From sequence record OR670491: a stretch of DNA of 64,000 nucleotides; one strand, given 5' to 3'. The notes below the pieces were generated by a model. That model had not been told where the DNA came from, made no database searches, and worked only from the letters and a program-made list of their open reading frames with translations. The position numbers were made by a program, and so were the translations under genes. Positions 3,254-56,556 of this stretch are shown piece after piece; within the stretch, counting starts at the first letter, position 1; every line of letters begins with the position of its first letter. This stretch comes from Escherichia phage vB_EcoM_JNE01.

Positions 3254-3256
3254 TTT

Positions 3257-6116: not shown

Positions 6117-6123
6117 GTAAAAT

Positions 6124-6534
6124 ATGATTGAAATGGAAGGAACTCTGGTGTATGATCCAGATCGTGGCACTATGAAAAAGAAGAAGGACTTCTGGTTAGT
6201 ACTGCAACTTCCATTACAGTTGGTTCGATACTACCAGTACTTCATCAGAACTGACTTACATATTGATATTAAAGACCCACAATGGGGAGCACATGTCAGT
6301 ATCGTTCGTGGTGAAGTGCCACCAAATCCAGAGTACTGGAAAAAGTACGATGGTATGAAAGTTAAGATTAAGTTCGAACCTTTCATCGAAGAAGTAAAAG
6401 ACAATAAGAAACCTGGGTCATTCTTTATCATAGAGTTTGAAGATGATTTCATTGCACAAATTCGTGATGAACTTGGTTTAGCATCTAAATATTTCAAATA
6501 TCACATCACCATTGGTAGAACATACTACGATTAA
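6124..6534 (+). CDS. 2H phosphoesterase superfamily protein (LigT/cyclic phosphodiesterase-like; possibly Acb1-like)
   Basis: Two H-x-[ST]-x motifs (HVSI near residue 57, HITI near residue 127) in a 136-aa protein, the 2H hallmark. Confidence 0.5.
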   Translation: MIEMEGTLVYDPDRGTMKKKKDFWLVLQLPLQLVRYYQYFIRTDLHIDIKDPQWGAHVSIVRGEVPPNPEYWKKYDGMKVKIKFEPFIEEVKDNKKPGSFFIIEFEDDFIAQIRDELGLASKYFKYHITIGRTYYD

Positions 6535-6557
6535 TGTGGTTATTTGGTAAATAGGTC

Positions 6558-6585
6558 TTGATATAACTAAAAAGTATGCTATACT
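6558..6585 (+). promoter_or_regulatory. sigma70-like promoter (TTGATA, 16-nt spacer, TGcTATACT)
   Basis: Motif upstream of the endolysin gene. Confidence 0.4.
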
Positions 6586-6701
6586 ACTTAAATGTTCCAA
6601 AGAACAACTGAGTACTGTAGAAAGTCCAATGAGGCTTTTGCAAATGGCCTCTTTGCCCTCTTTGTGATTGCTCATTGTTAACAACCAACAAAGGAGGCGT
6701 T

Positions 6702-7628: not shown

Positions 7629-7636
7629 TTTACAAT

Positions 7637-7667
7637 AAAGGATGATATGTATCATCCTTTATTTTTA
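7637..7667 (+). terminator. intrinsic terminator (AAAGGATGAT/ATCATCCTTT)
   Basis: 10-bp stem, 4-nt loop, then ATTTTT. Confidence 0.65.
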
Positions 7668-7677
7668 AGGTAAAAAT

Positions 7678-8310
7678 ATGATATATAATGTTGGTATAAA
7701 TGATGTACCAGGTGATTCTAAATCGGATAGTGATGGTTATTATATATATGTGAAATGGAAAAGTATGATTAAACGATGCTACTCAGTTGAATATCAAAAA
7801 ATACACCATTCATATATTGGAACAACTGTATGTAATGAATGGCTTACATATTCAAATTTTAAAGATTGGTATCTAAATAATTACATAGACGGGTATGTTT
7901 TAGATAAAGACTTGATATCGGGTGATTTACAAGTATACTCACCAGTGACATGTTCATTTGTACCACAAGAATTAAATTGTTCTATTCTTGAAAGTAATAG
8001 TGCTAAAACAAAACTACCATTGGGTGTGTCATATCAACAGAAAACTAAAAATATGATAAATGAACGTTCGAAACCATATGATTCATATATAAAAATGTAT
8101 GGTAAGTTGTATCGTCTTGGTAGTTATGAATGTCCTGAACTTGCACATAAAGAATGGCAAATCGCCAAGAAAAAATATCTCGAAGAACTCATTGACAGAT
8201 ATAAAAATTCTGTTAAAATGGAAGTCATAGAAGGTATTCAGAAACGAATTGATATATTACATAATGATATAGTCAATGACGGTGTTACAATAACAATCAA
8301 TAAGATATAA
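7678..8310 (+). mobile_element. free-standing HNH (HNH_3)/AP2-type homing endonuclease gene
   Basis: Pattern YxxWxxMxxRCY ... VCxEW ... LDKD ... YSPVTC and AP2-like GVSYQQKTKNM; very AT-rich, bracketed by terminators. Confidence 0.5.
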
Positions 8311-41536: not shown

Positions 41537-41570
41537 ATAGTTCCCTCCATTTTGGGTTATTAAAATACCA

Positions 41571-41674: not shown

Positions 41675-44600
41675 TTATACACGTTGAGCAATGAAGGTAT
41701 CAAATACAGTACTGAAACCATCATAAACAACTTGAATGATACTAACTTGGTTCACAACTGAACTTACCTGACCAGATACAACTGCGTATTCAGCAGGGAT
41801 AGTTAGAACAGCATCACTAACAGTTGGTGTTACGTAAATGTATACAGAACACGCTTCACCGCTACCGATTAGACCAGTAATTGGTGCTAGGGTAGTGTTT
41901 TGGTCAAGAGTTAGACGATATACGTTACTAGAACCATCTGGAGTCCATGTACCGGATACAGAAGCGGTAGAAGCTACTACTGAAGTTGGTAGAACAGAGT
42001 ATTTCTTAGTGATTACAGTACTGGTTGTGAAATCAGCATCAGTAGTGTTCAATGCACCAGTCACCGTTAGGGCTTTATCAATCACAACGTTCTCTTTGAA
42101 GGTTGCAGTGCCATTAACAGTGATAGTATCAGCGGCAGCATCACCTAGAACAACATTACCATTAGCGGTTAATGTACCAGTAAAGGTTGCAGAACCAGTT
42201 ACGGCTACACTTGCTAGTGTTGCTAAACCTGTTGTAGTTATGGATGCAGTTGAAATTTCACTTTGAACGCTTAAGTTTTCAGAGAATGTTGCTGCACCTG
42301 TAACGGCTACACCACCATTCAGACTCGCTAGTCCAGTTACTGCAAGGGTAGAGCCGGTTTCTAAACTTCCACCAGTAATTTTACCAGTTGCAGTAATTGT
42401 TGTACCAGCAGAAATTGAAGTCCCCGCATTCACATTGTTGGTTGCAGTTAAAGATTTAACAGCTACATCAGAATCCGCTTGGTTCAATTGTGCGTTTAGT
42501 ACTCCTGTTACTGTGAAGTCACCGTTGGTTACAACGTTACCATTTACGGTTAGGTTGTTGTTTAGTGAACCAGAATCACCAATTGTTGCTGCTTTAGCAA
42601 TCATGGTTGCACCAGAAGTGATGTTACCAACTGCACTAACAGTTGAATCAGCCGCAATTGCGAATGGTTCTAATGTTTGACCGCTTACATCGATATCGGC
42701 GTTAATACCACCATCAACACGTAGTTTACCAGCAATATATGTATCAGGAACAATATGAACTGTTTCTGGTTGAACTGCTAGAGGTGTGCCAACTGTAAAT
42801 GATGTACCAGTTTTCACTGCACCACTTGCGGTTAGATCTGCAACGGTTGTTGCTCCAGTCACACCTAGTGTACCACCAACTGTAGTATTACCAGTAGAAG
42901 ATAAAACTCCTGCCCCGACAGTTCCAGATGCAGTTAATGATGTTGCATTGATGTCTGCTGTTGATATTCCACCACTCAATGTACTCAAACCAGTAACACT
43001 TAAAGTAGTTGATGAAGACAAGCTATTTGCAGAAACATCAGCACCAGTTAGATCCAAACCACCTTGTGGAATCAATGTACCTTCAACTGTTACGTTACCT
43101 TTTGCCACGGTTGCACCAGTTACTTCCAAAGACGCAGCAGTTGCTTTACCAGAGGTAGATAGAGTTGAAACACTTGTTGCACCAGCTTGTACTACACCAA
43201 GAGTTGAGGTTCCAGTAACACCAAGAGTGGTTGTTACGGATGCACTTGATAGGGTACTTGCCCCAGCAGTTAGCCCAGCAAGAGATGTTGTACCAGTTAC
43301 GCCTAGTGTACCACCAACGGTAGTATTACCAGAGATTACAGGAGCACCAGTAATTACCCCAGTTGTTAGTACTAAATCAGCACCAACAGTTGTGTTTCCA
43401 GTACTTGCTAGTGTTGCAGCTTGTAGGTTTGTACCACTTAGGTCAAATGTACCATCAACTGTTAAATTACCTGCAACGTGTGCATTACCAAGAGAGTTAA
43501 GTGACTTAACAGAAACATCAGTAGTGCTTAGATCAATTGCACCAGCAGTTAAAGTACCAGATGCATGGAAATCACCAGTAACATTTGTGGATTTTGAAAT
43601 TTCAACTGTTGCACCAGGAGCCGTGAAGGATGCACCACTAATTGCACCAGTTGCCGCTACAGAACTAGCATCAATTGCAGTTGCAGATACAGCAGCAAGG
43701 GTAGAAGCACCAACAACATCAAGTGAGCCAGAAGCAGAAATATTACTTGTATTAATATTAGCTACAGTACTTTCCCCAGATACATTCAATGTTGTTGCTT
43801 TTGCTGCACCTAATGTACTATCGGTTGAAGATAGTTTAGGGAATGTATTGGTTTTTAATGCATCAGTACTAACAAAACTTAATGCAGATACATCTGCACC
43901 ACTTAAATCAACAGTACCTGCAACAGATAGGTTTCCACCGATAGTAGCACCTTCAGTTGTGGTTATTGAGTTAGAAGTTATGTCAACTGAGCTTAGGTCA
44001 AGACCACCTTGCGGGGTAAAGACACCTGTTACGGTTAGGTCTTTAGCTGCTACTACATTACTAGCAAGATTCAATGTTCCCGCACCAGACGCTCCAGCTT
44101 GAACCGTAGGAGTTGTTACAGAAGTTGAAATTGTAGCAGTTGTAGAAGATAAACGTGAACCAGAAACAACACCAGTACTGGTCAATGTTCCAACTTTTGC
44201 AGCACCAGTAGTTGTGATAGTACCACCAGATACATCACCGGAAGCTACTACAGAAGATGCGTTAACAACACCAAAGGTACTTGGGTTAGTTGCAGTAATA
44301 GATTTTGCAGTTACATCAGCAGAACTAAGATCGATAGCACCAGATACAGCAAGAGAACCACCTACGGTTACGTTTCCAGTAGTAGTTAAAGATGCAGCAC
44401 TTACATCAGTAGTACTTAAATCAATCCCACTTGGAGTTAGTGTTCCAGTGATCGTAACATCATTAGCAAATGTAGTATTCCCACTGATAGTTGGAGCAGT
44501 TAGTGAACCAACAGTCGCAGCACCAGTTACTTCTAAAGAACCAGCAGTTGCTTTACCGGACACACCTAGTGAATTACCTAAAGTAACAGCACCAGTTACA

Positions 44601-46561
44601 CCTAATGTACCACCAACTGTAGCATTACTCACTACATGAAGACCAGTACCAGATGCACCATTTAGTGTTAGATACCCTGCCGATGCTGCACCAGATATAG
44701 TTGCTGAACTTGCATTAACAGCAGCCAATGTGGTTTCACCAGCAACACTTAGTGTTGTTGTTACATCAACTTTATTAGGAGCAATATCAAGGCCATCTAC
44801 GTCGGCTACGGCGGTTACACCAGTTGTGGTTCCAGTTACTACTAGATCCTTAACAGTTACTGTTTGGCCTTGTACGGTTACATTACCATCTAAAATACTA
44901 TCTCCAGTTACACCTAATGTTCCACCAAGAGACGTTCCACCTGTGACTTCTAGATAGCCAGCAGTGGTTTTGCCAGTAGAAGTTAATGTTGTTCCCTGAA
45001 TACCAGACGTTGCAGTTACGGAGTTAGGAGTTAGATCCTGCCCACTAACATCAACAGTTAGGCCAGTAACAGTTCCTGTGAATTCTACATCACCTAGAAC
45101 CGATTTACCAGCAACAGAAAGTTGTGGAGTTCCTGGAGCTTGAGTAGCGTTACCAGCGATTTCTAGATAATCTAGTTTGTTTAGACCTTTACCTGTGATA
45201 CCATATGTTGCTAGTGAAGCATCACCAAAGGTTGCAGTTTTCTGAACAGTTAATGTAGCAGGAGACATTAATTCAGATTGAATTTCGTTCTGTAGAAGAA
45301 CAGTTGGGCGTTGACCAACGGCAGTATAAGCAAAACCAACTTTGGTATCAGCACTTGCAGATGCTGGACCTAGGTTTAGTGCTTTAATATTTGCAGTAGT
45401 GTTAGTACCACTGATATTACCACCTAGAGTTACAGAACCTTCAAGACTAGTTAGGCCAGATACTTTTAGTGTTTGTGCTTCGATATCACCTAAACTGAAT
45501 GTACCACCAAGAACACCACTTACGTTAATGTTATTGAAGTTTGCAGTGCCAGTACTTTCAATATTAGGAATAGTAGCAGAACCAGTTACTTCGAAATCAG
45601 TTACTTTAGTTAAACCTTTAGTAACTTCAAGTAAAGGGGTAGCTGGTGATTGAACTGCGTTACCACTAATAGTTACATAATCTAATTTGTTTAGACCATT
45701 ACCAGTGATACCAAAAGTACTTAAAGATGCATCACCAAAAGTAGCAGACTTAAGAACAGTTAGGGATGCTGGAGACATTAGCTCGGACTGAATTTCGTTT
45801 TGTAGAATTACAGTTGGGCGTTGGCCTGGTGCGGTATAAGTGAAGCTTAAACGGTAAGCACTGCTTGCGGAGTTAGCACCGATTTTGACATCTTTAAATG
45901 TTGCAGTTGTGTTGATACCAGTGATGTTCGCACCTAGAGTAACAGCACCCTGTAGGCTACTTTGACCAGACACAGTTAGGGTAGTTGCGTTTACATCAGA
46001 AAGACTGAATGCACCACCTAGTGTACCACTTATGGTAACATCGTTAAAGCTGGCTGTACCAGTACTATTAATGTCGGTTGCATTTAAAGTTGCAATAGTT
46101 GCTTCGTTTGCAGATAGTTTATCAAATGCAGCAGTAGTTCCTGCGTCAGCATTAATATTACCTTTAAAAGTTGAAATTCCATCAACTGATAGTGAGTCAA
46201 CAGATGTTGCTTTCAAATCAACATTACCAGCAGTTTGACGAATATTACCACCAAATGAAACACCAGAGTTAAAAGTTGCTGCGGAGTTAATTGTAGCAGT
46301 ATCAGTACCTGGTGCTACTGCACCAATCACAGTGCTACCTACCACTTCAACACCACCATTAAGAGATGCTTTACCAGCTACATCTAGGGTAGAAGTGATA
46401 TTAGCAGTTGCTGCTTCAATTGCAGTGAATGTAGCATTTGCAAAAGAAACTGTACCATTTACGGTAAGATTCTTATTGAATACTGCATCACCTTTAACTA
46501 ATAGATCTTTACCGACTACAGCACCACCAGTAATATCTAGATCAGTTTTAATCGAGTACAT
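41675..46561 (-). CDS. giant repeat-rich tail fibre protein, paralog (1628 aa)
   Basis: Same N-terminus (MYSIKTDLD) and C-terminal ~100 aa as gene 1; two copies of the ~165-aa repeat; AATGGAGGG SD. Confidence 0.7.
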   Translation of the reverse strand: MYSIKTDLDITGGAVVGKDLLVKGDAVFNKNLTVNGTVSFANATFTAIEAATANITSTLDVAGKASLNGGVEVVGSTVIGAVAPGTDTATINSAATFNSGVSFGGNIRQTAGNVDLKATSVDSLSVDGISTFKGNINADAGTTAAFDKLSANEATIATLNATDINSTGTASFNDVTISGTLGGAFSLSDVNATTLTVSGQSSLQGAVTLGANITGINTTATFKDVKIGANSASSAYRLSFTYTAPGQRPTVILQNEIQSELMSPASLTVLKSATFGDASLSTFGITGNGLNKLDYVTISGNAVQSPATPLLEVTKGLTKVTDFEVTGSATIPNIESTGTANFNNINVSGVLGGTFSLGDIEAQTLKVSGLTSLEGSVTLGGNISGTNTTANIKALNLGPASASADTKVGFAYTAVGQRPTVLLQNEIQSELMSPATLTVQKTATFGDASLATYGITGKGLNKLDYLEIAGNATQAPGTPQLSVAGKSVLGDVEFTGTVTGLTVDVSGQDLTPNSVTATSGIQGTTLTSTGKTTAGYLEVTGGTSLGGTLGVTGDSILDGNVTVQGQTVTVKDLVVTGTTTGVTAVADVDGLDIAPNKVDVTTTLSVAGETTLAAVNASSATISGAASAGYLTLNGASGTGLHVVSNATVGGTLGVTGAVTLGNSLGVSGKATAGSLEVTGAATVGSLTAPTISGNTTFANDVTITGTLTPSGIDLSTTDVSAASLTTTGNVTVGGSLAVSGAIDLSSADVTAKSITATNPSTFGVVNASSVVASGDVSGGTITTTGAAKVGTLTSTGVVSGSRLSSTTATISTSVTTPTVQAGASGAGTLNLASNVVAAKDLTVTGVFTPQGGLDLSSVDITSNSITTTEGATIGGNLSVAGTVDLSGADVSALSFVSTDALKTNTFPKLSSTDSTLGAAKATTLNVSGESTVANINTSNISASGSLDVVGASTLAAVSATAIDASSVAATGAISGASFTAPGATVEISKSTNVTGDFHASGTLTAGAIDLSTTDVSVKSLNSLGNAHVAGNLTVDGTFDLSGTNLQAATLASTGNTTVGADLVLTTGVITGAPVISGNTTVGGTLGVTGTTSLAGLTAGASTLSSASVTTTLGVTGTSTLGVVQAGATSVSTLSTSGKATAASLEVTGATVAKGNVTVEGTLIPQGGLDLTGADVSANSLSSSTTLSVTGLSTLSGGISTADINATSLTASGTVGAGVLSSTGNTTVGGTLGVTGATTVADLTASGAVKTGTSFTVGTPLAVQPETVHIVPDTYIAGKLRVDGGINADIDVSGQTLEPFAIAADSTVSAVGNITSGATMIAKAATIGDSGSLNNNLTVNGNVVTNGDFTVTGVLNAQLNQADSDVAVKSLTATNNVNAGTSISAGTTITATGKITGGSLETGSTLAVTGLASLNGGVAVTGAATFSENLSVQSEISTASITTTGLATLASVAVTGSATFTGTLTANGNVVLGDAAADTITVNGTATFKENVVIDKALTVTGALNTTDADFTTSTVITKKYSVLPTSVVASTASVSGTWTPDGSSNVYRLTLDQNTTLAPITGLIGSGEACSVYIYVTPTVSDAVLTIPAEYAVVSGQVSSVVNQVSIIQVVYDGFSTVFDTFIAQRV
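45080..46080 (-). repeat. two tandem ~500-bp intragenic repeats in giant fibre gene 2
   Basis: Repeat core near 45160 and 45675; some ~130-nt stretches near-identical to gene 1. Confidence 0.5.
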
Positions 46562-46603
46562 TTAGTTCCCTCCATTTGAATGATTATAAACATAACCATT
46601 CTC

Positions 46604-46630
46604 GTTAATATGTATATATTTAGTTTATGA
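46604..46630 (-). promoter_or_regulatory. candidate late-promoter motif (minus sense AACTAAATATATACATAT)
   Basis: Shared motif. Confidence 0.35.
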
Positions 46631-46633
46631 TAT

Positions 46634-46666
46634 AAAAAAACCAGACCTGATACTAAAGGTCTGGTT
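46634..46666 (-). terminator. terminator hairpin (ACCAGACCT/AGGTCTGGT)
   Basis: 9-bp stem downstream of the 46674 gene stop with A/T runs. Confidence 0.6.
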
Positions 46667-46673
46667 ATATTTT

Positions 46674-47570
46674 TTATTTACCGGATATTACAACCTTGCC
46701 ACTAAATGCAACATAGGATGTGAATATAACATTACCACTAGCATCAATTTGAGTTTCAGCAGTAACAGCTTCAAAAGGTGCAAGAGCAGTACTGCCTTGT
46801 ACTTTATTACCGTATAGAGAAACGTATAGATTGTCAGGGGTTTGTTTATGATCTGCTGCTGGAATAGTTAGAGTGAATTGATCACCGGAAGCTACCCAAT
46901 CAGCCTGATTAATAAGTTTACTGTATGGTACTGTCATAGTTGTTGCTCCTATAATATTAATTTTAACACTTGCGTATTCTGAAAGCTGACCAACTACTTC
47001 TAGAGTTATATCACCAATACCAGAAACTGTAACGTTAGTTTGGAATACAGAATCCAAATCGACATCACCTGGGTCACCTTGCAATTGAACCATAATATCA
47101 GCACCGCGACCATGAATAGATTCAGGAAGAGTGTATGTATATTTGTCAGATGAACCTGGCTCTAATACAAATGCTGAAACTGGAACAGTATGTGTGGTTA
47201 CATAAGAACTATCACTACCAGGAGTAGATGATTTAAGTGGTTTCCATACACCAAGGTCTTTAATATAAATCTGAAGTGTATTTTCAGCATCAACTAGGAA
47301 ATACACATCACCATCGGTTCCCAATGCATCAGCAGGAGCTACAGTACCGCGAAGAATACCACCAGCACCACCGCCACCATGTGCGTTTAAATATCCCAAG
47401 GTTACCAGATGGGTATTAGCTGTTGGGTCAGCCGCAGAAATTGGAAGAAGACCAGTTCCTGTATAGTTTTGAATTTGCACAACACTACCATTCGTAGTGA
47501 TTTGTGCACCATTTTTACCAAGTATGAAGGTCTTCTTCATGGTTCCTTCTAAATTAGAAAAAACTGCCAT
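46674..47570 (-). CDS. tail spike/fibre protein with conserved N-terminal anchor module and Gly-rich hinge
   Basis: N-terminus MAVFSNLEGTMKKTFILGK paralogous to the 49727 module; start set to the second ATG (AAGGAG 9 nt upstream). Confidence 0.5.
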   Translation of the reverse strand: MAVFSNLEGTMKKTFILGKNGAQITTNGSVVQIQNYTGTGLLPISAADPTANTHLVTLGYLNAHGGGGAGGILRGTVAPADALGTDGDVYFLVDAENTLQIYIKDLGVWKPLKSSTPGSDSSYVTTHTVPVSAFVLEPGSSDKYTYTLPESIHGRGADIMVQLQGDPGDVDLDSVFQTNVTVSGIGDITLEVVGQLSEYASVKINIIGATTMTVPYSKLINQADWVASGDQFTLTIPAADHKQTPDNLYVSLYGNKVQGSTALAPFEAVTAETQIDASGNVIFTSYVAFSGKVVISGK

Positions 47571-47584
47571 TTTAATCATCTCCT

Positions 47585-49378
47585 TTATGATAGAGTTATA
47601 TATGTTATTGGCTGTGCCGCTTTTAATAATGCACCTGCTGCTGTAGCAGTTACAATTGGGTCGGCAATGTCAACGCGGTATGCGTTTGATACTACGTAAA
47701 CTGCTCTGGTGATGTATGTTAATAAATCTTCACCATTTGCCCCAGCACCTGTAATGAGTATTTGTGTTCCAGCAGCTTTCGCATATTGGTTATCACCCCA
47801 TGATACGCCTAACGCCTCTATATATGTTTGTCCTACAACCGTTTGTCGTATGGTGTCGTATTTTCCGAAGAAAGAACCACCAACTGTTACAATATATTTA
47901 CTCCCTGACTGGTTGTGAATAATTGTACCTTGTGGGAAATAACGACCACCAGGGAACGTGTCATATGGAACATAATATTGTTCAACTACAGGTATCAGTA
48001 CTGGACCACGGTGACCAGTTCCGTCAATATCAGTTGGTACTTTAAAGTTGTTAGATGATTGGTCAATTCTATCCACATACATTTTAGCAAAACTATATTT
48101 GGATATGTTACAATCATCTTGGACTACACAGTTTGTCCAGTTTGTATATGTATATTTAGAACGGGTATACAAACCACCACCTTCACCTTCTGTTGACAAG
48201 TGTTGACCAATAACATCTAACTCTTTAGTGCGAATATCACTAAACTTAGAAGCTGATGGAAGACCACGCCATTGAATCTTAGTACAAGTTACATTGGATA
48301 ATTCAGTATTGTTTGTCCAGTTATCAGAACAAGATGTATAAACTAAAATAGTTGATTCTGGAATATACAAATTAGATAATTTAAAGTTACGTGGAGGTCC
48401 AGCAAATTTACCAGAAGTTACACCCCAGTTTATAGAAACCATACGTGTAGTTACTGATGCGTCATTTAATAGATGTCCAGTAAGACCATCGACAATAAAG
48501 TCTTTTGAACCATAAGTGATAACACCACAGGTAGTAAGGCCAGTACCAGTCGATACCAATGAGGATGGATATACCTCGTTATCTAAAATTTTAAAATCTT
48601 TACCAACTTCAACGTGAATACACTGACGAACGTTATAAACTCTATTGTTTTTAATAACAAAGTTTTTAACATATTGTGAATCAGGAGCATCAACGTCATA
48701 TGGACCAGAACCCGCTACCCCAATTCCTATACCCCAGTTTGATAATGGGATTGGTGCATTAGTACCGTCAACGTTTTCAATAATATTTCCTTCAATTACA
48801 AAACCATCAGGATAATGAGAGTTGATAACGTTTAGTTCGATTGCATCCCCATAGATATCGTGAATATGGTTATAAGAATAACGCCCTACTGTCATTTTTT
48901 CACCCGTGCCTTGTTGAAGAACTCCATACTTACAAAGAGTCATTTCATTAAAGCAGAAATCAATAGTGCCAGTTTGAGTCATACCTTGCATTAAAAACGC
49001 AGCAGTACTGGTAATGTTTATAAATTTATTAAAATAAAATTTACCATCACCACCAAAGAATTTAAGATAACAACCAGTTAATGTAGCAAATTGTATATGG
49101 CAGTTGATTACAGAAATCATAGTACCGCCGTTACCTGTTATTGTTCCACCAAACCAAGTTATATCTTCCAAGTATAAGGCTGTTTTAATTCTATAATTAC
49201 CTTTACCTTGAACTTGAATTTTATTCTCTTTTGCATATACTGCACAGGCATTTACTGCCGCAGTGTCATCTGTTTCACCATCACCTGCTGCCCCAAACTC
49301 TTCAGGAGTTACATAGAACTGTGCTTGTTGAAGTGTTCCTCCTGTTATCAATCCAATATAATCTCCGTCCGTTAACAC
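47585..49378 (-). CDS. tail spike catalytic part: right-handed beta-helix polysaccharide depolymerase (pectate-lyase-like)
   Basis: FGAAGDGETDDTAAVNAC N-terminal signature; GTG start without SD; probably the C-terminal part of one gene with 49302..49727. Confidence 0.6.
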   Translation of the reverse strand: MLTDGDYIGLITGGTLQQAQFYVTPEEFGAAGDGETDDTAAVNACAVYAKENKIQVQGKGNYRIKTALYLEDITWFGGTITGNGGTMISVINCHIQFATLTGCYLKFFGGDGKFYFNKFINITSTAAFLMQGMTQTGTIDFCFNEMTLCKYGVLQQGTGEKMTVGRYSYNHIHDIYGDAIELNVINSHYPDGFVIEGNIIENVDGTNAPIPLSNWGIGIGVAGSGPYDVDAPDSQYVKNFVIKNNRVYNVRQCIHVEVGKDFKILDNEVYPSSLVSTGTGLTTCGVITYGSKDFIVDGLTGHLLNDASVTTRMVSINWGVTSGKFAGPPRNFKLSNLYIPESTILVYTSCSDNWTNNTELSNVTCTKIQWRGLPSASKFSDIRTKELDVIGQHLSTEGEGGGLYTRSKYTYTNWTNCVVQDDCNISKYSFAKMYVDRIDQSSNNFKVPTDIDGTGHRGPVLIPVVEQYYVPYDTFPGGRYFPQGTIIHNQSGSKYIVTVGGSFFGKYDTIRQTVVGQTYIEALGVSWGDNQYAKAAGTQILITGAGANGEDLLTYITRAVYVVSNAYRVDIADPIVTATAAGALLKAAQPITYITLS

Positions 49379-49727
49379 TTGACAAAATATCTTTATTAAC
49401 GTATAGTGATTTTACCCATTTACCATCAATTTTTAGAAATATATCAACAATCCCTTCACTGTTAGTTTGGAAATATGTATAATTATTTTTACCGATATCA
49501 TCTGAAGGGATGGCTTCACCAAACATTACGGTTGGGTGATCTTCTAGATACTTAACATTGACAGCAGAATCGGCATCAACCGCAGACCCTACTTTAACTG
49601 GTAGAAATTTTTCACCAAATGAATCCTTTATTGAAATGGAATCATCTGAAAAACTAATCAAGGCTCCTTTTTTACCAAGGATGAATGAGGGCTGCATGGT
49701 TCCTTCTAAATTAGAAAAAACTGACAT
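49302..49727 (-). CDS. tail spike N-terminal anchor module (frame-separated from the depolymerase)
   Basis: MSVFSNLEGTMQPSFILGK; GGGGG SD; overlaps the depolymerase ORF by 77 nt in another frame. Confidence 0.5.
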   Translation of the reverse strand: MSVFSNLEGTMQPSFILGKKGALISFSDDSISIKDSFGEKFLPVKVGSAVDADSAVNVKYLEDHPTVMFGEAIPSDDIGKNNYTYFQTNSEGIVDIFLKIDGKWVKSLYVNKDILSSVNGRRLYWIDNRRNTSTSTVLCNS

Positions 49728-49741
49728 AATCAATACCCCCG

Positions 49742-50869
49742 TTAGATGTTATCGCTAATTGGTTGTATTGGTGATTGCCATGCCAAAGTACAGATAATTT
49801 TAATTTGACCATAAGCACTGTTGTTTACAGAGTCGTTGAAAATACAAGAGATAATTTCATCTTTATCAGAAACAGTGTGGTTAACTTCGTTAACAATAAA
49901 ACGCATTTTACGGTTAATGTCAAAATAATCAACTGGAGCAATTACAGTACCCCCAATATCTTCTTGTGCTTCACCACCGAAACGAACAAACATTTCGTTA
50001 ACTGGTAAATCATAAGCTTGTTGTACATCAACATCGATATTAGTAACTAGGTATCCAGCAGGACATGTACCAATAACTAGAACGGCGTTAGTCCATGAAT
50101 GATCAATAGTGTTTACAATAACCAAGGAATCTTTACCTGGAGCACCTGTAGCACCTGGTAGACCTTGTTCACCTTGAATACCCTGTTTACCACGGAATTC
50201 AATACCAGTACTCCACTCTTTGGAAGGCGGGGTTGTGGTGTTTACAATATCAACATAGTATAGTTTACCATCTGTGGTATTATAGAAGCAGTAGTCTTCA
50301 GGAAGGTCAGTAATACTAGGGAATACATCACCAGTACTATCAATATGGAATCGTCCACGTAGACCTTGTGGGCCACGGAATTGTACACCATCACTCCAAG
50401 TTGCAGTTACTGATTGATAGAAATAAACTTTACCATCAGTTGTATTATAGAATGTATAGTTGTTTACGAGGTTAGTAGTTGGGAATGTATCACCAGAGCT
50501 ATCAATATGGAATGATTTACCAGCTTCACCAGTATCACCTTTACCAAATTCTACAACGTTCCAAGTACTATTACTGTCAGTTGCGGCGTTGGTTTTGAAA
50601 TATAGCTTACTAGTTCCGTTTGCAAGACTAAGATAGCACCAGCCAAGTTCTTCACCTACTCGGAATGATTCATCTGGGATTTCAAAACCTATCTCGTTTG
50701 GATAAAAGTTTTTACCATTTGTACCATCTCTACCAACAACAAGACCTAGATCTTGAATTGTGTTGTCAGCGTAAGTTACGATCAAATGTCCAGCAGAGTT
50801 GATAACTAAACTCTTTATGCCGGAATTATTGCATGAACTACTAGTCCCATTATTAAATGAAATTGTCAT
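49742..50869 (-). CDS. tail fibre protein with short collagen-like G-x-y runs
   Basis: Start set to internal ATG with AAAGGAAA SD; motifs GPQGLRG and GKQGIQGEQGLPGATGAPG. Confidence 0.5.
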   Translation of the reverse strand: MTISFNNGTSSSCNNSGIKSLVINSAGHLIVTYADNTIQDLGLVVGRDGTNGKNFYPNEIGFEIPDESFRVGEELGWCYLSLANGTSKLYFKTNAATDSNSTWNVVEFGKGDTGEAGKSFHIDSSGDTFPTTNLVNNYTFYNTTDGKVYFYQSVTATWSDGVQFRGPQGLRGRFHIDSTGDVFPSITDLPEDYCFYNTTDGKLYYVDIVNTTTPPSKEWSTGIEFRGKQGIQGEQGLPGATGAPGKDSLVIVNTIDHSWTNAVLVIGTCPAGYLVTNIDVDVQQAYDLPVNEMFVRFGGEAQEDIGGTVIAPVDYFDINRKMRFIVNEVNHTVSDKDEIISCIFNDSVNNSAYGQIKIICTLAWQSPIQPISDNI

Positions 50870-50981
50870 TATTATTTCCTTTTTATAAGTGAATCGTAAT
50901 ATACCAATATTTATCAGTACAAAATACATTTCGACATCATTAATAAATAAATGAAAGTTCACTACTAAAAAGGGCTTAACA

Positions 50982-51479
50982 ATGGCATTAAGATCAAAAG
51001 ATTTCCTATTCAAGCGTAAAGCTAAAGACGGTTCATGGCAAGAGTTCCCTGAATCTGACAGTTGGTATCCATCAAACCTAGATTATCTCTGGAATGAGCA
51101 AACACTACCTCTTGCAAGTGGTGGTTACTATGGAAGTACAACTGGGTTACATACAATTTCCTTTACCCTGCGTAACTTCATCGGTAGAATTTATGTACTA
51201 GCAACTCTAGCAAGTAACCCGTCAGATGATGATTGGTTCCCTATTAAATTTACCGAAAGCTGCAATTATTATCTTGAATTCACTGATACTGTTATTCTAA
51301 ACCCAAATGGCGGTGATCTTATCAGAGAACAAGGTACAACTGGTACATTTGCTGAAACATTAACTGGTAACTTTACCTATCTCAAAATTGGTATCGACCG
51401 TGACTACATTAGTAAGTACCCTTCTGATGTTCAGAAGAGTTTAGCTGGTAAATTAGAACAAATTTTAATAAACTATTAA
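50982..51479 (+). CDS. hypothetical protein (structural region)
   Basis: 165-aa ORF. Confidence 0.5.
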   Translation: MALRSKDFLFKRKAKDGSWQEFPESDSWYPSNLDYLWNEQTLPLASGGYYGSTTGLHTISFTLRNFIGRIYVLATLASNPSDDDWFPIKFTESCNYYLEFTDTVILNPNGGDLIREQGTTGTFAETLTGNFTYLKIGIDRDYISKYPSDVQKSLAGKLEQILINY

Positions 51480-51492
51480 TTAAGGATTAGAA

Positions 51493-52101
51493 ATGAAGTT
51501 TGAAACAGAACAACCAAAACTATTTGTTAAGGGTCATGTACTAATTACTGATGTTACTGATCCAGAACATGAAAAAATTGTTTTAGACAAGTCCAACGCA
51601 ATTCACCCTGAAAATATGAGTACTGCTATTGCGAATGCTCTAGCTTATAACCAAGATAGTACGGGTATTCCTATCGGTTCTATTAGTGAAATGCGTTTTG
51701 GTAATGGTGGTACAGTAGTATTGAGTACTGGTCGCGTTACTTACAAAAAACCACGTGTAACATCGTTTGGTGGCTTGTATTCTGAAACATATTTGAAGAA
51801 AATCAACCCGCGTATCACTGCTGGTATTGATGCACAATACAATAACATTACAACTGTTCACATCCCAGGCCAATCTTATACTGATATCGTTTGTATCTGT
51901 ACTCTAGGTCTAGGTGAACCATCTGACCAAGCAGTTAGTTCCGGTACAAGCATGGATGGAACCTATGTATTTGATGAATTGGGGTTATATACAGATGGTG
52001 ATAGTGGTATTCCACTTACTCACATCATTTTCCACCCAGTTGAGAAAAGTGCTAACCGTGTATTGCAAATTAAATACACTGTACGTGTACAACTTCAATA
52101 A
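51493..52101 (+). CDS. hypothetical protein
   Basis: 202-aa ORF. Confidence 0.5.
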   Translation: MKFETEQPKLFVKGHVLITDVTDPEHEKIVLDKSNAIHPENMSTAIANALAYNQDSTGIPIGSISEMRFGNGGTVVLSTGRVTYKKPRVTSFGGLYSETYLKKINPRITAGIDAQYNNITTVHIPGQSYTDIVCICTLGLGEPSDQAVSSGTSMDGTYVFDELGLYTDGDSGIPLTHIIFHPVEKSANRVLQIKYTVRVQLQ

Positions 52102-52114
52102 TAAGAGGTAGAAT

Positions 52115-53215
52115 ATGAATATTAACTATACAATTTATCGTAGTGATGGTACAGTTTATGCTACCATCCCTAATAACGTAATTCTTGGACCGAATCAACC
52201 TGGTTCGAACCCAGTACCTCTAAACTTGGTCGGTCGTAACAAAGTTGGTTACGGTCAAGCATGGAATGAAAACTTTTTACATTTAGTTGAGCATTTTAGT
52301 GGTAGTGTTGCTCCACGTGGTAACGTTAAAGGTCAAATCTGGTACAGAAACACTGGTGCTACTGGTGAGTTGCTAATTTCTCTTCTTGACAACGCCAGAC
52401 AACCAGAAGATACTGTTACGGAAGCAGAATGGGCTTCTATCCCAATGATTAGTGTTTTTAACACTATTCCTGATGGTGAAAACAGTGTTATGGGACGTAT
52501 GGTTTTAACCAGCAATGGTGATTCCCTCCGTGTCCTAATGAAAAACAAAGAATGGCGTGAAATCCAGACATCCAGACCAGAAAACAAAGAGTACTCAACT
52601 CTTTTAGATATCAACTATGATACTGGTAAGAAATATATCGAATTTACTCAAAGTGCCAGTACTAAACCACTAGCTTACTTTAATATGGGTGGTACTTCTC
52701 AAGTTGACGAGGATAACTGGACTACTTTCACTAATGGTACTGGTGTATTTGAATTTGGTAGCAACTATTTCTACGAATTAAAAATTATGATTCGTGAAGT
52801 AAGTGATGCAACTGGTTCAGTGGTGTCTTTACCATATAATTCCAAAACATTTATGATTAAAGGTCAATTCTATGTTGATAACCAAGGTACATTTGTTCCT
52901 GGTTCAGTTGGTGCAAGCTCTATCCCTGATCCACGTCGAATTACTCAACTAGAATCAATTAAAGACGTTATTACAAGCAGCCGCCCTAACTGGGATGTTA
53001 ATATTGTAATCAACGGTGTAGATTCAACGATTCCTAATCCAAATGGCGTTACTAAAGCTGATTATGAGAACTGGGTAATCAATTCATTGAACTCTAACAA
53101 AAACTTAGGCTTCAGGATTGATGGTTCAATCAGTAATCTGGTTGCTGGGGAATCTGTTAAGCTTCAGGCTTCAGTACTATTGAATATTACTGGTATCCCA
53201 CTAATTGGTGTATAA
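52115..53215 (+). CDS. hypothetical structural protein
   Basis: 366-aa ORF. Confidence 0.45.
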   Translation: MNINYTIYRSDGTVYATIPNNVILGPNQPGSNPVPLNLVGRNKVGYGQAWNENFLHLVEHFSGSVAPRGNVKGQIWYRNTGATGELLISLLDNARQPEDTVTEAEWASIPMISVFNTIPDGENSVMGRMVLTSNGDSLRVLMKNKEWREIQTSRPENKEYSTLLDINYDTGKKYIEFTQSASTKPLAYFNMGGTSQVDEDNWTTFTNGTGVFEFGSNYFYELKIMIREVSDATGSVVSLPYNSKTFMIKGQFYVDNQGTFVPGSVGASSIPDPRRITQLESIKDVITSSRPNWDVNIVINGVDSTIPNPNGVTKADYENWVINSLNSNKNLGFRIDGSISNLVAGESVKLQASVLLNITGIPLIGV

Positions 53216-53248
53216 AAGAAAAGGAGAGCATTAAGCTCTCCTTTTTTA
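53216..53248. terminator. bidirectional terminator (GGAGAGC/GCTCTCC), same family as 32226 and 58954
   Basis: AAAAGGAGAGCATTAAGCTCTCCTTTTTTATTA between convergent genes. Confidence 0.7.
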
Positions 53249-53713
53249 TTAATAACGATAAGGTAAACTGTTGACAAACTGCTTACCTTGATTTATACTT
53301 TCCCACAATGAAAGGAAATCTTTCATCAAATTAGTGTTAAGTAAAGTGTTTTTAGCTCCTGGGTGAAGCGGCTTAGGCCACGAACCAATTTTTACCCATG
53401 CATATCCTGAACTCTCATGGTTTAGTATTGGAACAAATTCATTTTCAACAACAACAACAAAAGAATAATATCTGAACTTACCATTCTTAGTACAAAATAC
53501 GTCGAATGGAATAATATCAATAATATCAGGTATAGAATCACCCAACTCTTCTTTCATTTCACGATGTAAACCTTGAATCGGAGTTTCCTTATGTTCAAGC
53601 TTCCCACCAACAAACGCCCAGTTATTTGAATATGTACTTCTTTCAGATCGTAGATTCAACATCATATGACCAGTGCTTTTCGATAAAAATATAGCACCTA
53701 CTGCTTCATTCAT
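53249..53713 (-). CDS. Nudix hydrolase
   Basis: Nudix box GGKLEHKETPIQGLHREMKEELG; AAGGAGGTG SD. Confidence 0.7.
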   Translation of the reverse strand: MNEAVGAIFLSKSTGHMMLNLRSERSTYSNNWAFVGGKLEHKETPIQGLHREMKEELGDSIPDIIDIIPFDVFCTKNGKFRYYSFVVVVENEFVPILNHESSGYAWVKIGSWPKPLHPGAKNTLLNTNLMKDFLSLWESINQGKQFVNSLPYRY

Positions 53714-53725
53714 AACAACACCTCC

Positions 53726-55069
53726 TTATTTGTCAGTGAAAGTTATCTTCCAGTATCCTTGACGGTATTGAGACATAATACTATTATGCCATTTGAATTT
53801 GTCATTATAACGATAATAGTGGCTGTCAGTACGGTTGTAAACATAGTTGTGTACTGTTAGCGGATCTATCAATTCAACACCATCATTTGTTATTTTAAAC
53901 AAAGCGTATGCTGGAATTTCTGTATCTTTATAAACGATGCCATGTATAGTGTTATTTACATAATATTGTTCAGGTATAGCGTTATATAATTCAGATGATT
54001 TCGTTACAAATCCAGTCAACGTATAATCAACACGGTAATTAGTGCTGTCAAGTTGGACTACAATCTTATTCGCTTCTGCATCTTCACCATAAGATGTGAT
54101 GACACCCTTAAGCGGATTATCTTCTTCAATTGCTTGTTGGAATTTGATACCAATTTTCTTATTTTTGTATTCAGGTTCCAAATACTCCATGTATTTTTCC
54201 CAAGAATAGATATTTCCACTTGGTGTGATTGGGTTCATAGACTGACTTACTAAAGTAAGAACATAACTATCAGGGATAGAAAGTCTAGAGTCAGTAATTT
54301 CATCAACTTTAATACATAGATTCTTTGGAGTAAACACATCAGTGATTATATCAGTGAAGTTTCCAAATTCCATATCAAATTCATCAATACCACTTTGAAT
54401 ATTCGTTGTGATTTGTTGAATAAGTTTTGGTTTCTCTACAATAGCTGGTAGAGAGAACCAGATTGTTGTTTCAAAAGTTAGAACCATGATATCTAAATCG
54501 GTATCAGTACCCTGTGGGAATCCACGAGTACTGAATTGACAATCGATTAACTCAACATCACTAAGAGAAGTCCAATCCAATGGGTTCTCGGTAAGCTGTA
54601 ACTGAATACTCGGTGCAAACAAAGTTGAGATCTGTTCGAACAATTCCATTTTTGTTTGTGTTTGAGTAACCCAAATATTCAAATCAAACGTAAATGTCCA
54701 AGGCACAGGGTTGTGCCTAGTTACTTTATGTTGCTTATCTAACTTCTTAGTATATTCGTTCTGTGCTGGTGACTCATTAGTACCGAAGATAATAGTTTCA
54801 TTTGCGTTAGAACGAATACTTTTCCTATCCATCTTAAGTTGGTTTACACTAATAGTCATGATTGGTGCTGATGGTAATACGTTTTCACTGTTACCATTGA
54901 TAATAGCAGCAGCCAAACGTGAAATGTCAGCATATCTACATGGAACTTTCTTATATTTCGCCTTCCCTTCACTATCGATTCCGTTCTGAACTTGAAATTC
55001 ACCAAAAACACGAATCAAATGTTTCAGTACTCGACGAAATTGTCCATCATAATAATAATCTACTTTCAT
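53726..55069 (-). CDS. T4 gp15-like tail completion / sheath stabiliser protein (extended)
   Basis: N-terminal region collinear with T4 gp15 as recalled: FRR ... KYKKVP ... NPVPWTFTFDLNIWVTQTQTKMELFEQISTLFAPS. Confidence 0.5.
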   Translation of the reverse strand: MKVDYYYDGQFRRVLKHLIRVFGEFQVQNGIDSEGKAKYKKVPCRYADISRLAAAIINGNSENVLPSAPIMTISVNQLKMDRKSIRSNANETIIFGTNESPAQNEYTKKLDKQHKVTRHNPVPWTFTFDLNIWVTQTQTKMELFEQISTLFAPSIQLQLTENPLDWTSLSDVELIDCQFSTRGFPQGTDTDLDIMVLTFETTIWFSLPAIVEKPKLIQQITTNIQSGIDEFDMEFGNFTDIITDVFTPKNLCIKVDEITDSRLSIPDSYVLTLVSQSMNPITPSGNIYSWEKYMEYLEPEYKNKKIGIKFQQAIEEDNPLKGVITSYGEDAEANKIVVQLDSTNYRVDYTLTGFVTKSSELYNAIPEQYYVNNTIHGIVYKDTEIPAYALFKITNDGVELIDPLTVHNYVYNRTDSHYYRYNDKFKWHNSIMSQYRQGYWKITFTDK

Positions 55070-56556
55070 TCGCTATCCTTATGTACTCTATATACAATGT
55101 TTGGTTTAACTGCGTCATGCAACGGAACTCTGTTTGGATTATTCACAAACGAAGTTAGTGCTAGGTCTGCACCTTCCCACGGTTTTCTTCCACCATAATC
55201 GAAAATTACCCAAGAATTCTTATCAGCACTGTATTCCCATAGTGTTACTGGTGTGTAATCAGTTCTATAGAAGAATTCCCCATCAGAAACATCAGTTGGG
55301 AACTCAGTTCCTTCACCAACAGTTCCACGAGCCGGAGGAATACGAGGACGATAGTCTTGTTGTGAGTCAATGTTGCCATAAACACTATTAGAAGTGAAAG
55401 CATCATTCACGTAAGTTACTTCTGGTAGCTGCCACTCACCATCTCTGTACTGATAAATGGTAGGAACAACATATTTTATGTAAAAATCATCAACCCCTTG
55501 CGGTGGTGTATCTTCTGTTGTATACTGCACATCACAGTTGAGCCACTTTTTAGAAGATTTGTCGTATTGATAGAGAGAATATCCGGTTATATCAGATTCA
55601 TTCTCTTTAAAGAAGAAATCTCCGTCACTTGGCTTACGTGGGAACAGTGTTCCGTTAATAACTGAAACATCTTCCCATGTGCCATTGACAAGTTCTTTCA
55701 GTACTGGTAAACTCTTCTTCAAGAAATACATTTTATCGGCTGGTTCTCCTGGGAATTCATATCCATTGAGAACAAATTTGGATAAATCCATAGTATCGGG
55801 TCTGTCATCAAATAGATGTTCGTTGGTAAAGTGAATATAAGGTACTTCGTCATCAGCTTGCATAATGATACGGTTCATAATATCCATTTCATTACCGTAG
55901 TTGCTGTTTTCGGAGCCGCCATCTGTGTTACCATTACCATTGTTTGGATCATCTGGGTTATCAGGGTAGTTATTGTTGTCAAGTAGCTCTGAATATTCAG
56001 GTGAATCGGTAAGTGGTTTAACACGGAGTTTAAAAATGTGATGTTGCCATGTAACTGAGTAACCTTCAGATGTTCTAAACGCATCTTGTACTACATAGAA
56101 GCGGTTAAGACCTGAATCTTTACCAATTACATCAAAATCACGAAGGTTAGGAAGTTCAATAACATCGCCTGGCATTATTTTTCTTCCCAAGCGTTGCATC
56201 ATAGTGTTATAATGAACTGTAATATCCATTGTGTTAAAGTTAAAGAACAACCCAGGGATTTTTAAATCAGGAGTTGCTTCTTGGACTTGATAAACACAGC
56301 TAAATGTGATAGCCTCTAAGTTGTAGTTACGATTAGGAGTATCACCAAAAATTAAATCACCAATGCTTGACACGGTGCTATCATTTGTGAGATAATCTCC
56401 ACCGTAAGATAAATCAGTGTTGTCGGCAACTTGTTTTGCCCCAACATACGCGTAGAGCCACATGTCTACGCCGCCGATGTTGTACTGTTCGGCTATGGCA
56501 GAATCAATAAACTGATAGTCTTTGGTTCTACCTTTCTTCCACATTTTATATGCCAT
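55066..56556 (-). CDS. hypothetical virion protein
   Basis: Start set to internal ATG with GGAG SD; ATGA overlap with the downstream gene. Confidence 0.45.
   Translation of the reverse strand: MAYKMWKKGRTKDYQFIDSAIAEQYNIGGVDMWLYAYVGAKQVADNTDLSYGGDYLTNDSTVSSIGDLIFGDTPNRNYNLEAITFSCVYQVQEATPDLKIPGLFFNFNTMDITVHYNTMMQRLGRKIMPGDVIELPNLRDFDVIGKDSGLNRFYVVQDAFRTSEGYSVTWQHHIFKLRVKPLTDSPEYSELLDNNNYPDNPDDPNNGNGNTDGGSENSNYGNEMDIMNRIIMQADDEVPYIHFTNEHLFDDRPDTMDLSKFVLNGYEFPGEPADKMYFLKKSLPVLKELVNGTWEDVSVINGTLFPRKPSDGDFFFKENESDITGYSLYQYDKSSKKWLNCDVQYTTEDTPPQGVDDFYIKYVVPTIYQYRDGEWQLPEVTYVNDAFTSNSVYGNIDSQQDYRPRIPPARGTVGEGTEFPTDVSDGEFFYRTDYTPVTLWEYSADKNSWVIFDYGGRKPWEGADLALTSFVNNPNRVPLHDAVKPNIVYRVHKDSE

What the first reader, a model, noticed from the sequence alone, without database searches (positions are those of the whole stretch)
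49302..49733. Tail-spike gene split by a single-base frame change in a TTTT run
The anchor ORF and the depolymerase ORF overlap by 77 nt in different frames. The depolymerase has only a GTG start with no SD, and its frame is closed about 10 codons upstream. Removing one T from the TTTT run near 49386-49391 (minus sense ATATTTTGTCAAGTG) would fuse them into one protein of about 715 aa, like the intact paralog at 46674..47570. It could be a sequencing error, a phase-variable homopolymer or a genuine frameshift.
Basis: seen in the sequence. Interest (0 to 1): 0.55.

Follow-up and report, generated by a model that had tools for sequence, protein, structure and literature searches.

The report
Real one-base insertion splits colanidase tailspike
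A jumbo E. coli phage carries a genuine single-base insertion, not in the suspected TTTT run, that cuts its capsule-degrading tail-spike gene into an anchor stub and an enzyme ORF; the same broken allele turns up in 18 independent metagenome samples.

Summary
The two overlapping minus-strand ORFs are real: 49302..49727 (141 aa) and 47585..49378 (597 aa), overlapping by 77 nt. The lesion is not in the TTTT run. It is an extra C at window 49367 (minus sense): AACGGA[C]GGAGAT against AACGGAGGAGAT in Turkey5, 121Q and PBECO4, where the gene is one 2142-nt CDS of 713 aa. Deleting that C gives a protein 100% identical to Turkey5's. The window is phage vB_EcoM_JNE01 (Asteriusvirus-like, Illumina).

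The same insertion, with an identical overlap, is present on contigs from 18 other samples, at least 11 haplotypes and one mosaic. This excludes a sequencing error and homopolymer phase variation.

The enzyme part is 58% identical to phi92 gp150, a characterised colanic-acid hydrolase (PDB 6e0v). The break lies in the low-confidence linker between the N-terminal attachment module and the beta-helix.

Among carriers the enzyme ORF has no second lesion, and its variation is 14 synonymous to 1 non-synonymous, like the flanking genes. It does not look like a decaying pseudogene. Its own start signals are atypical, and no frameshift signal is evident.

Most likely this is a circulating allele that uncouples enzyme from anchor. 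How, or whether, the enzyme is still made is unresolved. Ordinary in kind, moderately interesting at population level.

The parts
49302..49727 (-). Anchor-stub ORF, 141 aa. Codons 1-120 are native; then 21 out-of-frame codons (RRLYWIDNRRNTSTSTVLCNS) and TGA at 49304-49302.
   Evidence: The exact protein is WOL22755.1 of phage vB_EcoM_JNE01 and lies on 28 contigs.
49368..49727 (-). Native part of the stub, the N-terminal attachment module. It is paralogous to the N-terminus of the 298-aa protein at 46674..47570.
   Evidence: BLASTP 34% identity over 109 aa, E 4e-20. Small family: 18 representatives among 1.84 billion, nearly always at the N-terminus of proteins of 113-1027 aa.
49367..49367 (-). 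The inserted base (C in gene sense, G on the + strand) that shifts the frame.
   Evidence: Alignment A1; BLAST indel list; present in all 18 metagenome contigs covering the site.
49302..49366 (-). Part of the 77-nt ORF overlap lying 3' of the insertion. In the stub frame it reads CGG AGA (49367-49362) and AGG AGG (49343-49338). In the enzyme frame it reads GDYIGLITGGTLQQAQFYVTP.
   Evidence: CGG occurs 0 times and AGG 14 times in 16,806 codons of the window, with no AGG-AGG pair.
47585..49378 (-). Enzyme ORF: 597 codons from GTG 49378, or 588 from TTG 49351 as called by gene finders. It is a phi92 gp150-like colanidase beta-helix (Pfam PF27800 WcaM, PHROG 6117).
   Evidence: The exact 588-aa protein is WOL22754.1 and lies on 31 contigs.
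49384..49387 (-). It is not the site of the lesion.
   Evidence: Identical in the window and in intact Turkey5.
49304..49304 (-). T in all carriers (CCT Pro in the enzyme frame; first base of the stub's TGA). A in Turkey5, 121Q and PBECO4 (CCA). It is linked to the insertion.
   Evidence: CCT also occurs in the intact gene of phage A4, so it is an ordinary synonymous state.
46674..47570 (-). 298-aa virion structural protein (ortholog of 121Q gp572) that carries the same N-terminal module.

Best explanation
The split is a real, heritable single-base insertion: a C at window 49367, gene sense, in codon 121. It sits in the flexible linker of the Asteriusvirus colanidase tail-spike gene, the ortholog of 121Q gp573 and PBECO4 gp547, with an enzyme body homologous to phi92 gp150. 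It is carried by phage vB_EcoM_JNE01 and by a whole naturally circulating, recombining lineage.

Shown: ribosomes starting at ATG 49727 would make 120 native residues of the attachment module, then 21 junk residues, and stop at TGA 49304-49302. The 588-597-codon enzyme frame is no longer joined to the module.

Inferred: the main consequence is loss, or strong reduction, of virion-anchored colanidase, while the short N-terminal module is kept. The phage is viable without the fusion, since it was plaque-purified on O157:H7.

Inferred, about 55%: the enzyme ORF is unbroken and evolves under constraint in carriers, so it is probably still produced in small amounts. The likeliest route is weak internal initiation at TTG 49351 (GGAG 11 nt upstream) or GTG 49378, giving unanchored soluble enzyme. 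Occasional +1 slippage is less likely. Otherwise the allele is simply too young to show decay.
For: All other Asteriusvirus-type records are in frame at this point, and about 30 of 34 carry the gene as one piece. Removing the C gives a protein 100% identical to Turkey5 XMR01803.1.

It is the only frame-breaking indel in about 62 kb of window against Turkey5; the other five are intergenic or in-frame.

The window is 100% identical over 5176 nt to the assembly of JNE01's own read set. JNE01 was sequenced on Illumina NovaSeq and assembled with SPAdes.

The identical 78-nt junction is on 18 different contigs from 18 samples, and none of them carries the intact allele. They represent at least 11 haplotypes. 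One is a mosaic (L018) that is 5-10% diverged to one side of a breakpoint inside the gene. There are five protein variants of the stub, all with the same junk tail.

The enzyme ORF in carriers has no extra stop or indel. Its variation is 14 synonymous to 1 non-synonymous, against 63:9 in the flanking genes and a neutral expectation of 23% synonymous (P about 1e-8). By my tally from the table, changes absent from the nearest outgroups are 7:1.

An AF2 model of the ortholog puts residues 107-135 in a linker with pLDDT below 50, ahead of a confident beta-helix. The enzyme body matches phi92 gp150 (6e0v) at E 1e-239, and that protein is a characterised colanic-acid hydrolase.
Against: No reads were inspected, so within-sample mixtures of the two alleles cannot be excluded.

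The synonymous bias could partly reflect variation imported by recombination from intact alleles, because 6 of the 15 variable sites share their minor allele with the diverged L018 allele.

The candidate starts are atypical for this phage. In Turkey5, 66 of 68 neighbouring CDSs start with ATG, none with GTG, and every SD core but two lies 5-10 nt upstream. Independent translation may therefore be negligible.

There is no direct evidence that the Asteriusvirus ortholog is virion-bound. It is absent from the phAPEC6 virion mass-spectrometry table, with gene numbering inferred from masses.
Confidence: 0.8

Rival explanations
1. Recent null allele. The insertion simply inactivates the colanidase, the downstream ORF is silent, and it looks intact only because the mutation is young and the lineage recombines with intact alleles.
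For: There is no good start for the enzyme ORF. The intact Turkey5 allele differs from the nearest carrier only at 49367, 49304 and one private site in 6.2 kb, so the split is evolutionarily recent. The ortholog is also broken at other places in vB_Ec-M-J and SD-1_S14 and truncated in SD-6_S16, which suggests dispensability. The ortholog was not listed in the phAPEC6 virion proteome.
Against: Variation is 14:1 synonymous to non-synonymous, and 7:1 for changes absent from the outgroups. There is no second lesion in 18 contigs spanning up to about 1% backbone divergence and one mosaic.
Confidence: 0.4
2. Compensating +1 ribosomal frameshifting. Ribosomes stall at the very rare Arg codons that the insertion brings into frame (CGG-AGA at the site, AGG-AGG eight codons later) or at UCC-UGA, slip +1 and make some full-length anchored spike.
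For: The required shift is +1. CGG is used 0 times in 16,806 codons, AGG 14 times and AGG-AGG never. Tandem AGG codons are known to provoke +1 shifts in E. coli (Spanjaard and van Duin 1988, from memory). The enzyme ORF is under constraint.
Against: No P-site codon allows good re-pairing. There is no SD-like element at prfB-like spacing. The RNA fold is not above background (z -0.58). The two-frame arrangement is absent from all diverged relatives, so it was not selected as a recoding site. Rare codons are simply what any out-of-frame reading gives.
Confidence: 0.1
3. Sequencing or assembly error in the deposited genome.
For: Single-base frame breaks in phage records are often errors; the relative CMSTMSU shows seven pieces of this gene.
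Against: The site is not a homopolymer. The data are Illumina. It is the only frame-breaking indel in 62 kb. The identical allele is in 18 other samples assembled with MEGAHIT, SPAdes or Logan.
Confidence: 0.02
4. Phase-variable homopolymer (the TTTT run) switching the spike on and off.
For: A T4 run lies about 17-20 nt 5' of the lesion in the gene.
Against: The T run has the same length in split and intact alleles. The indel is a C between A and G. T4 is too short for efficient slippage.
Confidence: 0.01

Closest known systems
Colanidase tail-spike gene of other Asteriusvirus phages (121Q gp573, PBECO4 gp547, Turkey5 XMR01803.1)
   Same: Orthologous gene in the same position between the 375-aa tail protein and the 298-aa structural protein. 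Identity is 84-85% at protein level (121Q group), and 100% for Turkey5 once the C is removed.
   Different: There it is one 2142-nt CDS; here it is split after codon 120 by a 1-nt insertion.
Phage phi92 gp150 colanidase tailspike (PDB 6e0v/6e0w)
   Same: Residues about 90/100-712 align at 58% identity, E 1e-239, including the linker YV.K..LSS..G...GL..GG.L.QAQ.. VTPE.FGA.GDG. gp150 hydrolyses colanic acid.
   Different: The N-terminal attachment region is different. phi92 is an unrelated, smaller myovirus. Activity of the JNE01 protein has not been tested.
Two-polypeptide spike systems (the K1E/K1-5/SP6 adaptor plus endosialidase; KP32 gp37/gp38), from memory
   Same: The virion-attachment module and the depolymerase lie on separate polypeptides.
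   Different: Those have an evolved docking interface and proper starts for both genes. Here the separation is a fresh frame break inside a linker, with no evidence for an interface.
Programmed +1 frameshifts (E. coli prfB CUU UGA C; Listeria phage PSA cps/tsh), from memory
   Same: A +1 shift would be needed, and a stop codon and rare codons lie in the zero frame.
   Different: There is no slippery P-site codon, no SD stimulator, no structure and no conservation among relatives.
Soluble (non-virion) phage depolymerases released at lysis (review PMC5380687)
   Same: If it is translated from TTG or GTG, the enzyme would be an unanchored soluble depolymerase.
   Different: Expression is not shown, and the start signals are weak.

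Membership tests
phi92 gp150-like colanidase (Pfam PF27800 WcaM, PHROG 6117) | Sequence similarity over the whole beta-helix body | tested here: met
   6e0v E 1e-239 over residues 100-712; PHROG 6117 E 5e-248, profile positions 118-709; PF27800 precomputed on the 588-aa product.
phi92 gp150-like colanidase (Pfam PF27800 WcaM, PHROG 6117) | Hydrolysis of colanic acid | not testable with these tools
   Shown only for phi92 gp150 (cited in PMC13450770).
Tail spike with attachment module and enzyme in one chain | N-terminal module and enzyme encoded in one reading frame | tested here: not met
   The frames are separated by the C at 49367.
Tail spike with attachment module and enzyme in one chain | Presence in the virion | not testable with these tools
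   The ortholog is not in the phAPEC6 virion MS table, with numbering inferred. 121Q labels gp572 and gp574, but not gp573, 'structural'.
Programmed ribosomal frameshift site | Two-frame arrangement conserved in diverged relatives | tested here: not met
   The relatives aligned at the junction are in frame there, and 30 of 34 Asteriusvirus-type records give the gene as one tblastn piece.
Programmed ribosomal frameshift site | Slippery codon plus stimulator (SD or RNA structure) | tested here: not met
   No re-pairing P-site codon was seen by inspection; fold z-score -0.58.
Programmed ribosomal frameshift site | Trans-frame protein product | not testable with these tools
   Needs proteomics or a reporter assay.
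Phase-variable simple-sequence contingency locus | Indel lies in a repeat tract whose length varies among isolates | tested here: not met
   The C is inserted between A and G. The T4 run is invariant between the split window and intact Turkey5, and the junction from 49375 to 49298 is identical in all 18 carrier contigs.
Sequencing artefact | Not reproduced in independent data sets | tested here: not met
   Reproduced in 18 other samples.
Decaying pseudogene | Relaxed constraint or secondary lesions downstream of the break | tested here: not met
   14 synonymous to 1 non-synonymous, with no further stop or indel. Caveat: imports by recombination.

The most novel reading that the evidence does not exclude
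The insertion allele is maintained because the enzyme is still delivered. One route would be a +1 slip at the hungry Arg codons (CGG-AGA or AGG-AGG) that the insertion itself brought into frame, which would be a recoding site caught at birth in a wild phage population. The other would be a selected switch from virion-bound to free colanidase that has swept through a recombining jumbo-phage lineage.
Probability: 0.12. Interest if true: 0.6.

Novelty: new member of a known kind. Interest (0 to 1): 0.3.

Why it matters
For annotation: the two 'hypothetical proteins' of JNE01 (WOL22755.1 and WOL22754.1) are the halves of one colanidase tail-spike gene, and the break is real. It should be annotated as a disrupted gene and not 'corrected'.

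For biology: colanic acid is a common barrier to coliphages. A widespread wild lineage has uncoupled its colanidase from its attachment module yet keeps the enzyme ORF clean. Together with its near-isogenic intact relative Turkey5, it forms a natural pair for testing what a virion-bound colanidase contributes to host range, and whether free enzyme or low-level recoding suffices.

For phage-therapy candidates against O157 or APEC, it predicts a possible weakness on mucoid hosts.

Tried and rejected
1. TTTT-run hypothesis: rejected by alignment with Turkey5.

2. Exact-pattern scans for either junction in IMG/VR and JGI metagenomes found nothing. The carriers are in the ENA and Logan assemblies only.

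3. A word-indexed protein search with the 120-aa module returned only the query's own cluster. The exhaustive HMMER search was needed and gave no clear case of a stand-alone module followed by a separate enzyme gene elsewhere.

5. There was no match in complete E. coli genomes.

6. Promoter and terminator scans and the RNA fold were at background.

7. The linked A-to-T change at 49304, which creates the stub's TGA, was considered as a compensatory change. I rejected it as evidence because CCT occurs in the intact A4 gene, and without it the stub would end only 8 codons later.

8. The Kim et al. 2015 paper on the colanic-acid-degrading enzyme was not available. No paper on Turkey5 was found.

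9. Pfam and PHROGs gave no family for the 141-aa stub.

Full report
**What is in the sequence.** On the minus strand, an ORF runs from ATG 49727 to TGA 49304-49302 (141 aa). A second ORF runs from GTG 49378 to 47585 (597 aa). The two overlap by 77 nt in different frames. The second frame is closed by TAA at 49414-49412, 11 codons before the GTG. The descriptive part of the finding is therefore correct.

**Where the window comes from.** The region is 99.8% identical to Escherichia phage Turkey5 (PQ471516.1). It is about 79% identical to some 30 Asteriusvirus jumbo phages such as 121Q and PBECO4. The exact 141-aa and 588-aa products are WOL22755.1 and WOL22754.1 of phage vB_EcoM_JNE01. A Logan assembly of JNE01's own run, SRR26539804, is 100% identical to window 49694-54869. 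JNE01 was plaque-purified on E. coli O157:H7 from chicken-farm sewage, sequenced on Illumina NovaSeq and assembled with SPAdes (PMC10868205).

**Where the frame change is.**
- In Turkey5, 121Q (gp573) and PBECO4 (gp547) the gene is a single 2142-nt CDS.
- Alignment shows the TTTT run (49387-49384) is unchanged. The window has one extra C at 49367: AACGGA[C]GGAGAT against AACGGAGGAGAT, which reads N-G-G-D.
- The base lies between A and G, so its position is unambiguous and it is not in a homopolymer.
- Deleting it gives a 713-aa protein 100% identical to Turkey5's.
That differs from the conserved KDILSSVNGGDYIG.
- Over about 62 kb of window against Turkey5 (about 99% identity) there are six indels. 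The other five are intergenic or preserve the frame.

**It is not an artefact.**
- Exact-protein look-ups with the neighbouring 298-aa protein, the stub and the 375-aa neighbour returned contigs from 18 further samples. These include ENA/MGnify assemblies made with MEGAHIT or SPAdes, and Logan assemblies of SRA runs.
- Every contig covering the site has the 141 + 588 arrangement.
- All 18 carry the identical 78-nt junction, and none carries the intact junction.
- They are not one clone. There are at least 11 haplotypes over 6.2 kb, with pairwise differences up to about 0.9%.
- L018 is a mosaic. It is 5-10% diverged over window 43300-49124 (the fibre genes and the 3' three-quarters of the enzyme) and nearly identical beyond, with the breakpoint about 240 nt downstream of the insertion.
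- The stub exists in five protein variants, all with the same out-of-frame tail.
- The intact 713-aa sequence is not present in the 15-billion-protein collection.
- Sequencing error and homopolymer phase variation are therefore excluded for practical purposes.

**Relationship of the intact and split alleles.** In a neighbour-joining tree of 6.2 kb, Turkey5 sits inside the carriers. It differs from the nearest carrier (L010) at three positions only: a private change at 49048, the C at 49367, and 49304. At 49304 the carriers have T. This gives CCT Pro in the enzyme frame and the first base of the stub's TGA. Turkey5, 121Q and PBECO4 have A. Without that change the stub would end eight codons later. 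CCT also occurs in the intact gene of phage A4, so I treat it as a linked, ordinary synonymous difference. Split and intact alleles thus co-circulate in one recombining population, and the split is evolutionarily recent.

**What the gene is.**
- The enzyme part hits Pfam PF27800 (WcaM), precomputed, and PHROG 6117 'colanic acid degradation' at E 5e-248, profile positions 118-709 of 711.
- Residues 100-712 of the repaired protein match phi92 gp150 (PDB 6e0v/6e0w) with E 1e-239. Identity to the phi92-like phages is about 58% from residue 90 onward.
- phi92 gp150 is described as a colanidase tailspike (table in PMC5380687). It has been shown to hydrolyse the glucose-fucose beta-1,4 linkage of colanic acid (Xu et al. 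2025, as cited in PMC13450770).
- The first ~109 residues resemble the N-terminus of the neighbouring 298-aa structural protein at 34% identity.
- That module belongs to a very small family, 18 representatives in 1.84 billion. It is nearly always N-terminal on proteins of 113-1027 aa, as expected for an attachment module.
- An AlphaFold2 model of the ortholog P0001 (mean pLDDT 79.5) gives a poorly to moderately defined N-domain up to about 107, a stretch with pLDDT below 50 at 107-135, and a confident beta-helix from about 140. Codon 121 is therefore in the inter-domain linker.

**Consequence, and whether the enzyme ORF is dead.**
- Translation from ATG 49727 must give 120 native residues plus 21 junk residues.
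- The enzyme frame has no typical start. The GTG at 49378 has no SD. The TTG at 49351, chosen by gene callers, has GGAG 11 nt upstream.
- Among 68 annotated Turkey5 CDSs in this region, 66 start with ATG and none with GTG. SD cores lie 5-10 nt upstream in 49 of the 51 genes that have one.
- Yet in 18 carrier contigs the enzyme ORF has no further stop or indel.
- Among the near-clonal carriers it has 14 synonymous and 1 non-synonymous variable sites (82:8 with L018). Unbroken flanking genes show 63:9, and random mutation would give 23% synonymous (binomial P about 1e-8; Fisher test against the flanks P = 1).
- The contigs were retrieved through other proteins, so this count is not biased by the look-ups.
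- Six of the 15 variable sites share their minor allele with the diverged L018 allele and may be imports. By my tally from the table, the remaining changes, including 49292 whose neighbours exclude a 121Q-type patch, are 7 synonymous to 1 non-synonymous. My own binomial arithmetic gives about 2e-4.
- This argues against a long-dead pseudogene. It cannot exclude a very young null allele in a recombining population.

**Possible routes to expression.**
- The shift needed is +1.
- Right after the insertion the stub frame reads CGG AGA, and eight codons later AGG AGG. In 16,806 codons of the window, CGG is never used, AGG 14 times and AGG-AGG never.
- Such codons can provoke +1 shifts in E. coli (from memory: Spanjaard and van Duin 1988).
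- However, there is no P-site codon that re-pairs well, no SD-like stimulator and no structure above background (z -0.58). No relative has the two-frame arrangement, so nothing indicates a selected recoding signal.
- Weak internal initiation giving soluble enzyme is at least as plausible. Soluble phage depolymerases are known.
- There is no direct evidence that the Asteriusvirus ortholog is virion-bound. The phAPEC6 virion proteome lists gp253 (41.0 kDa, the 375-aa protein by mass) and gp256 (180 kDa fibre) but not gp254 or gp255. 121Q labels gp572 and gp574, but not gp573, as structural.
- The ortholog is also disrupted at other positions in vB_Ec-M-J (mid-gene), SD-1_S14, SD-6_S16 and CMSTMSU, the last being a poor assembly. 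This is consistent with dispensability in culture.

**Verdict.** The interpretation 'one gene split by one base' is right. 'TTTT run, phase variation or sequencing error' is wrong. It is a genuine insertion allele of a known kind of gene, widespread in nature. The unresolved and mildly interesting point is that the uncoupled enzyme ORF shows no decay.

Noticed in passing
L018 (ena:ERZ27302919:k141_460119), corresponding to window 43300-55727: Mosaic relative. It is 5-10% diverged from the window across the fibre genes, the 298-aa protein and the 3' three-quarters of the colanidase (window 43300-49124), but about 99.5% identical beyond. The recombination breakpoint lies inside the enzyme gene, about 240 nt downstream of the insertion.
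   Followed up: partly
window 49304: All carriers have T here and intact Turkey5, 121Q and PBECO4 have A. The change is synonymous in the enzyme frame (CCT/CCA) but creates the TGA that ends the stub. It lies only 63 nt from the insertion, while the rest of 6.2 kb is identical between Turkey5 and carrier L010 apart from one private L010 change. CCT also occurs in intact phage A4.
   Followed up: yes
window 6111-7591 and the unaligned stretches 5924-6110 and 7592-8308: Against Turkey5 this segment is only 78% identical or does not align, within an otherwise roughly 99% identical genome. It looks like a replaced cassette of small early genes.
   Followed up: no
window 30002: A 9-nt in-frame indel relative to Turkey5 in a GCTGCTGAA repeat inside a CDS. 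There are also 1-2-nt length differences in intergenic T and G runs at 8695 and 35162, and a compensated pair of 1-nt indels at 38496/38500 inside the 2120-aa fibre gene.
   Followed up: no
window 39477-41552 versus 45012-46577: The two giant fibre genes (about 2120 aa and 1628 aa) share internal repeats at 75-81% DNA identity, seen through the Turkey5 copies of both genes. The 1628-aa protein also contains long internal near-duplications in its translation.
   Followed up: no
L026 (phage vB_Ec-M-J, OQ718158.1) 1671-3813; L032 (SD-1_S14) 101-2210: The orthologous colanidase gene is broken at other positions in other records: mid-gene into 1083 + 1056 nt in different frames in vB_Ec-M-J, and near the 3' end in SD-1_S14. 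CMSTMSU shows seven pieces. Whether these are real or errors was not determined.
   Followed up: partly
window, all ORFs of at least 150 aa: The codon CGG is absent from 16,806 codons. Arg is encoded overwhelmingly by CGT (352), with AGA 68 and AGG 14. ARAGORN finds no tRNA gene in the window.
   Followed up: no
phAPEC6 virion proteome (PMC7247149): The proteins flanking the colanidase ortholog (gp253, gp256) were detected in virions, but gp254 and gp255 are not mentioned. If the numbering inferred from masses is right, the intact colanidase and the 298-aa protein were not detected in that relative's particles.
   Followed up: partly
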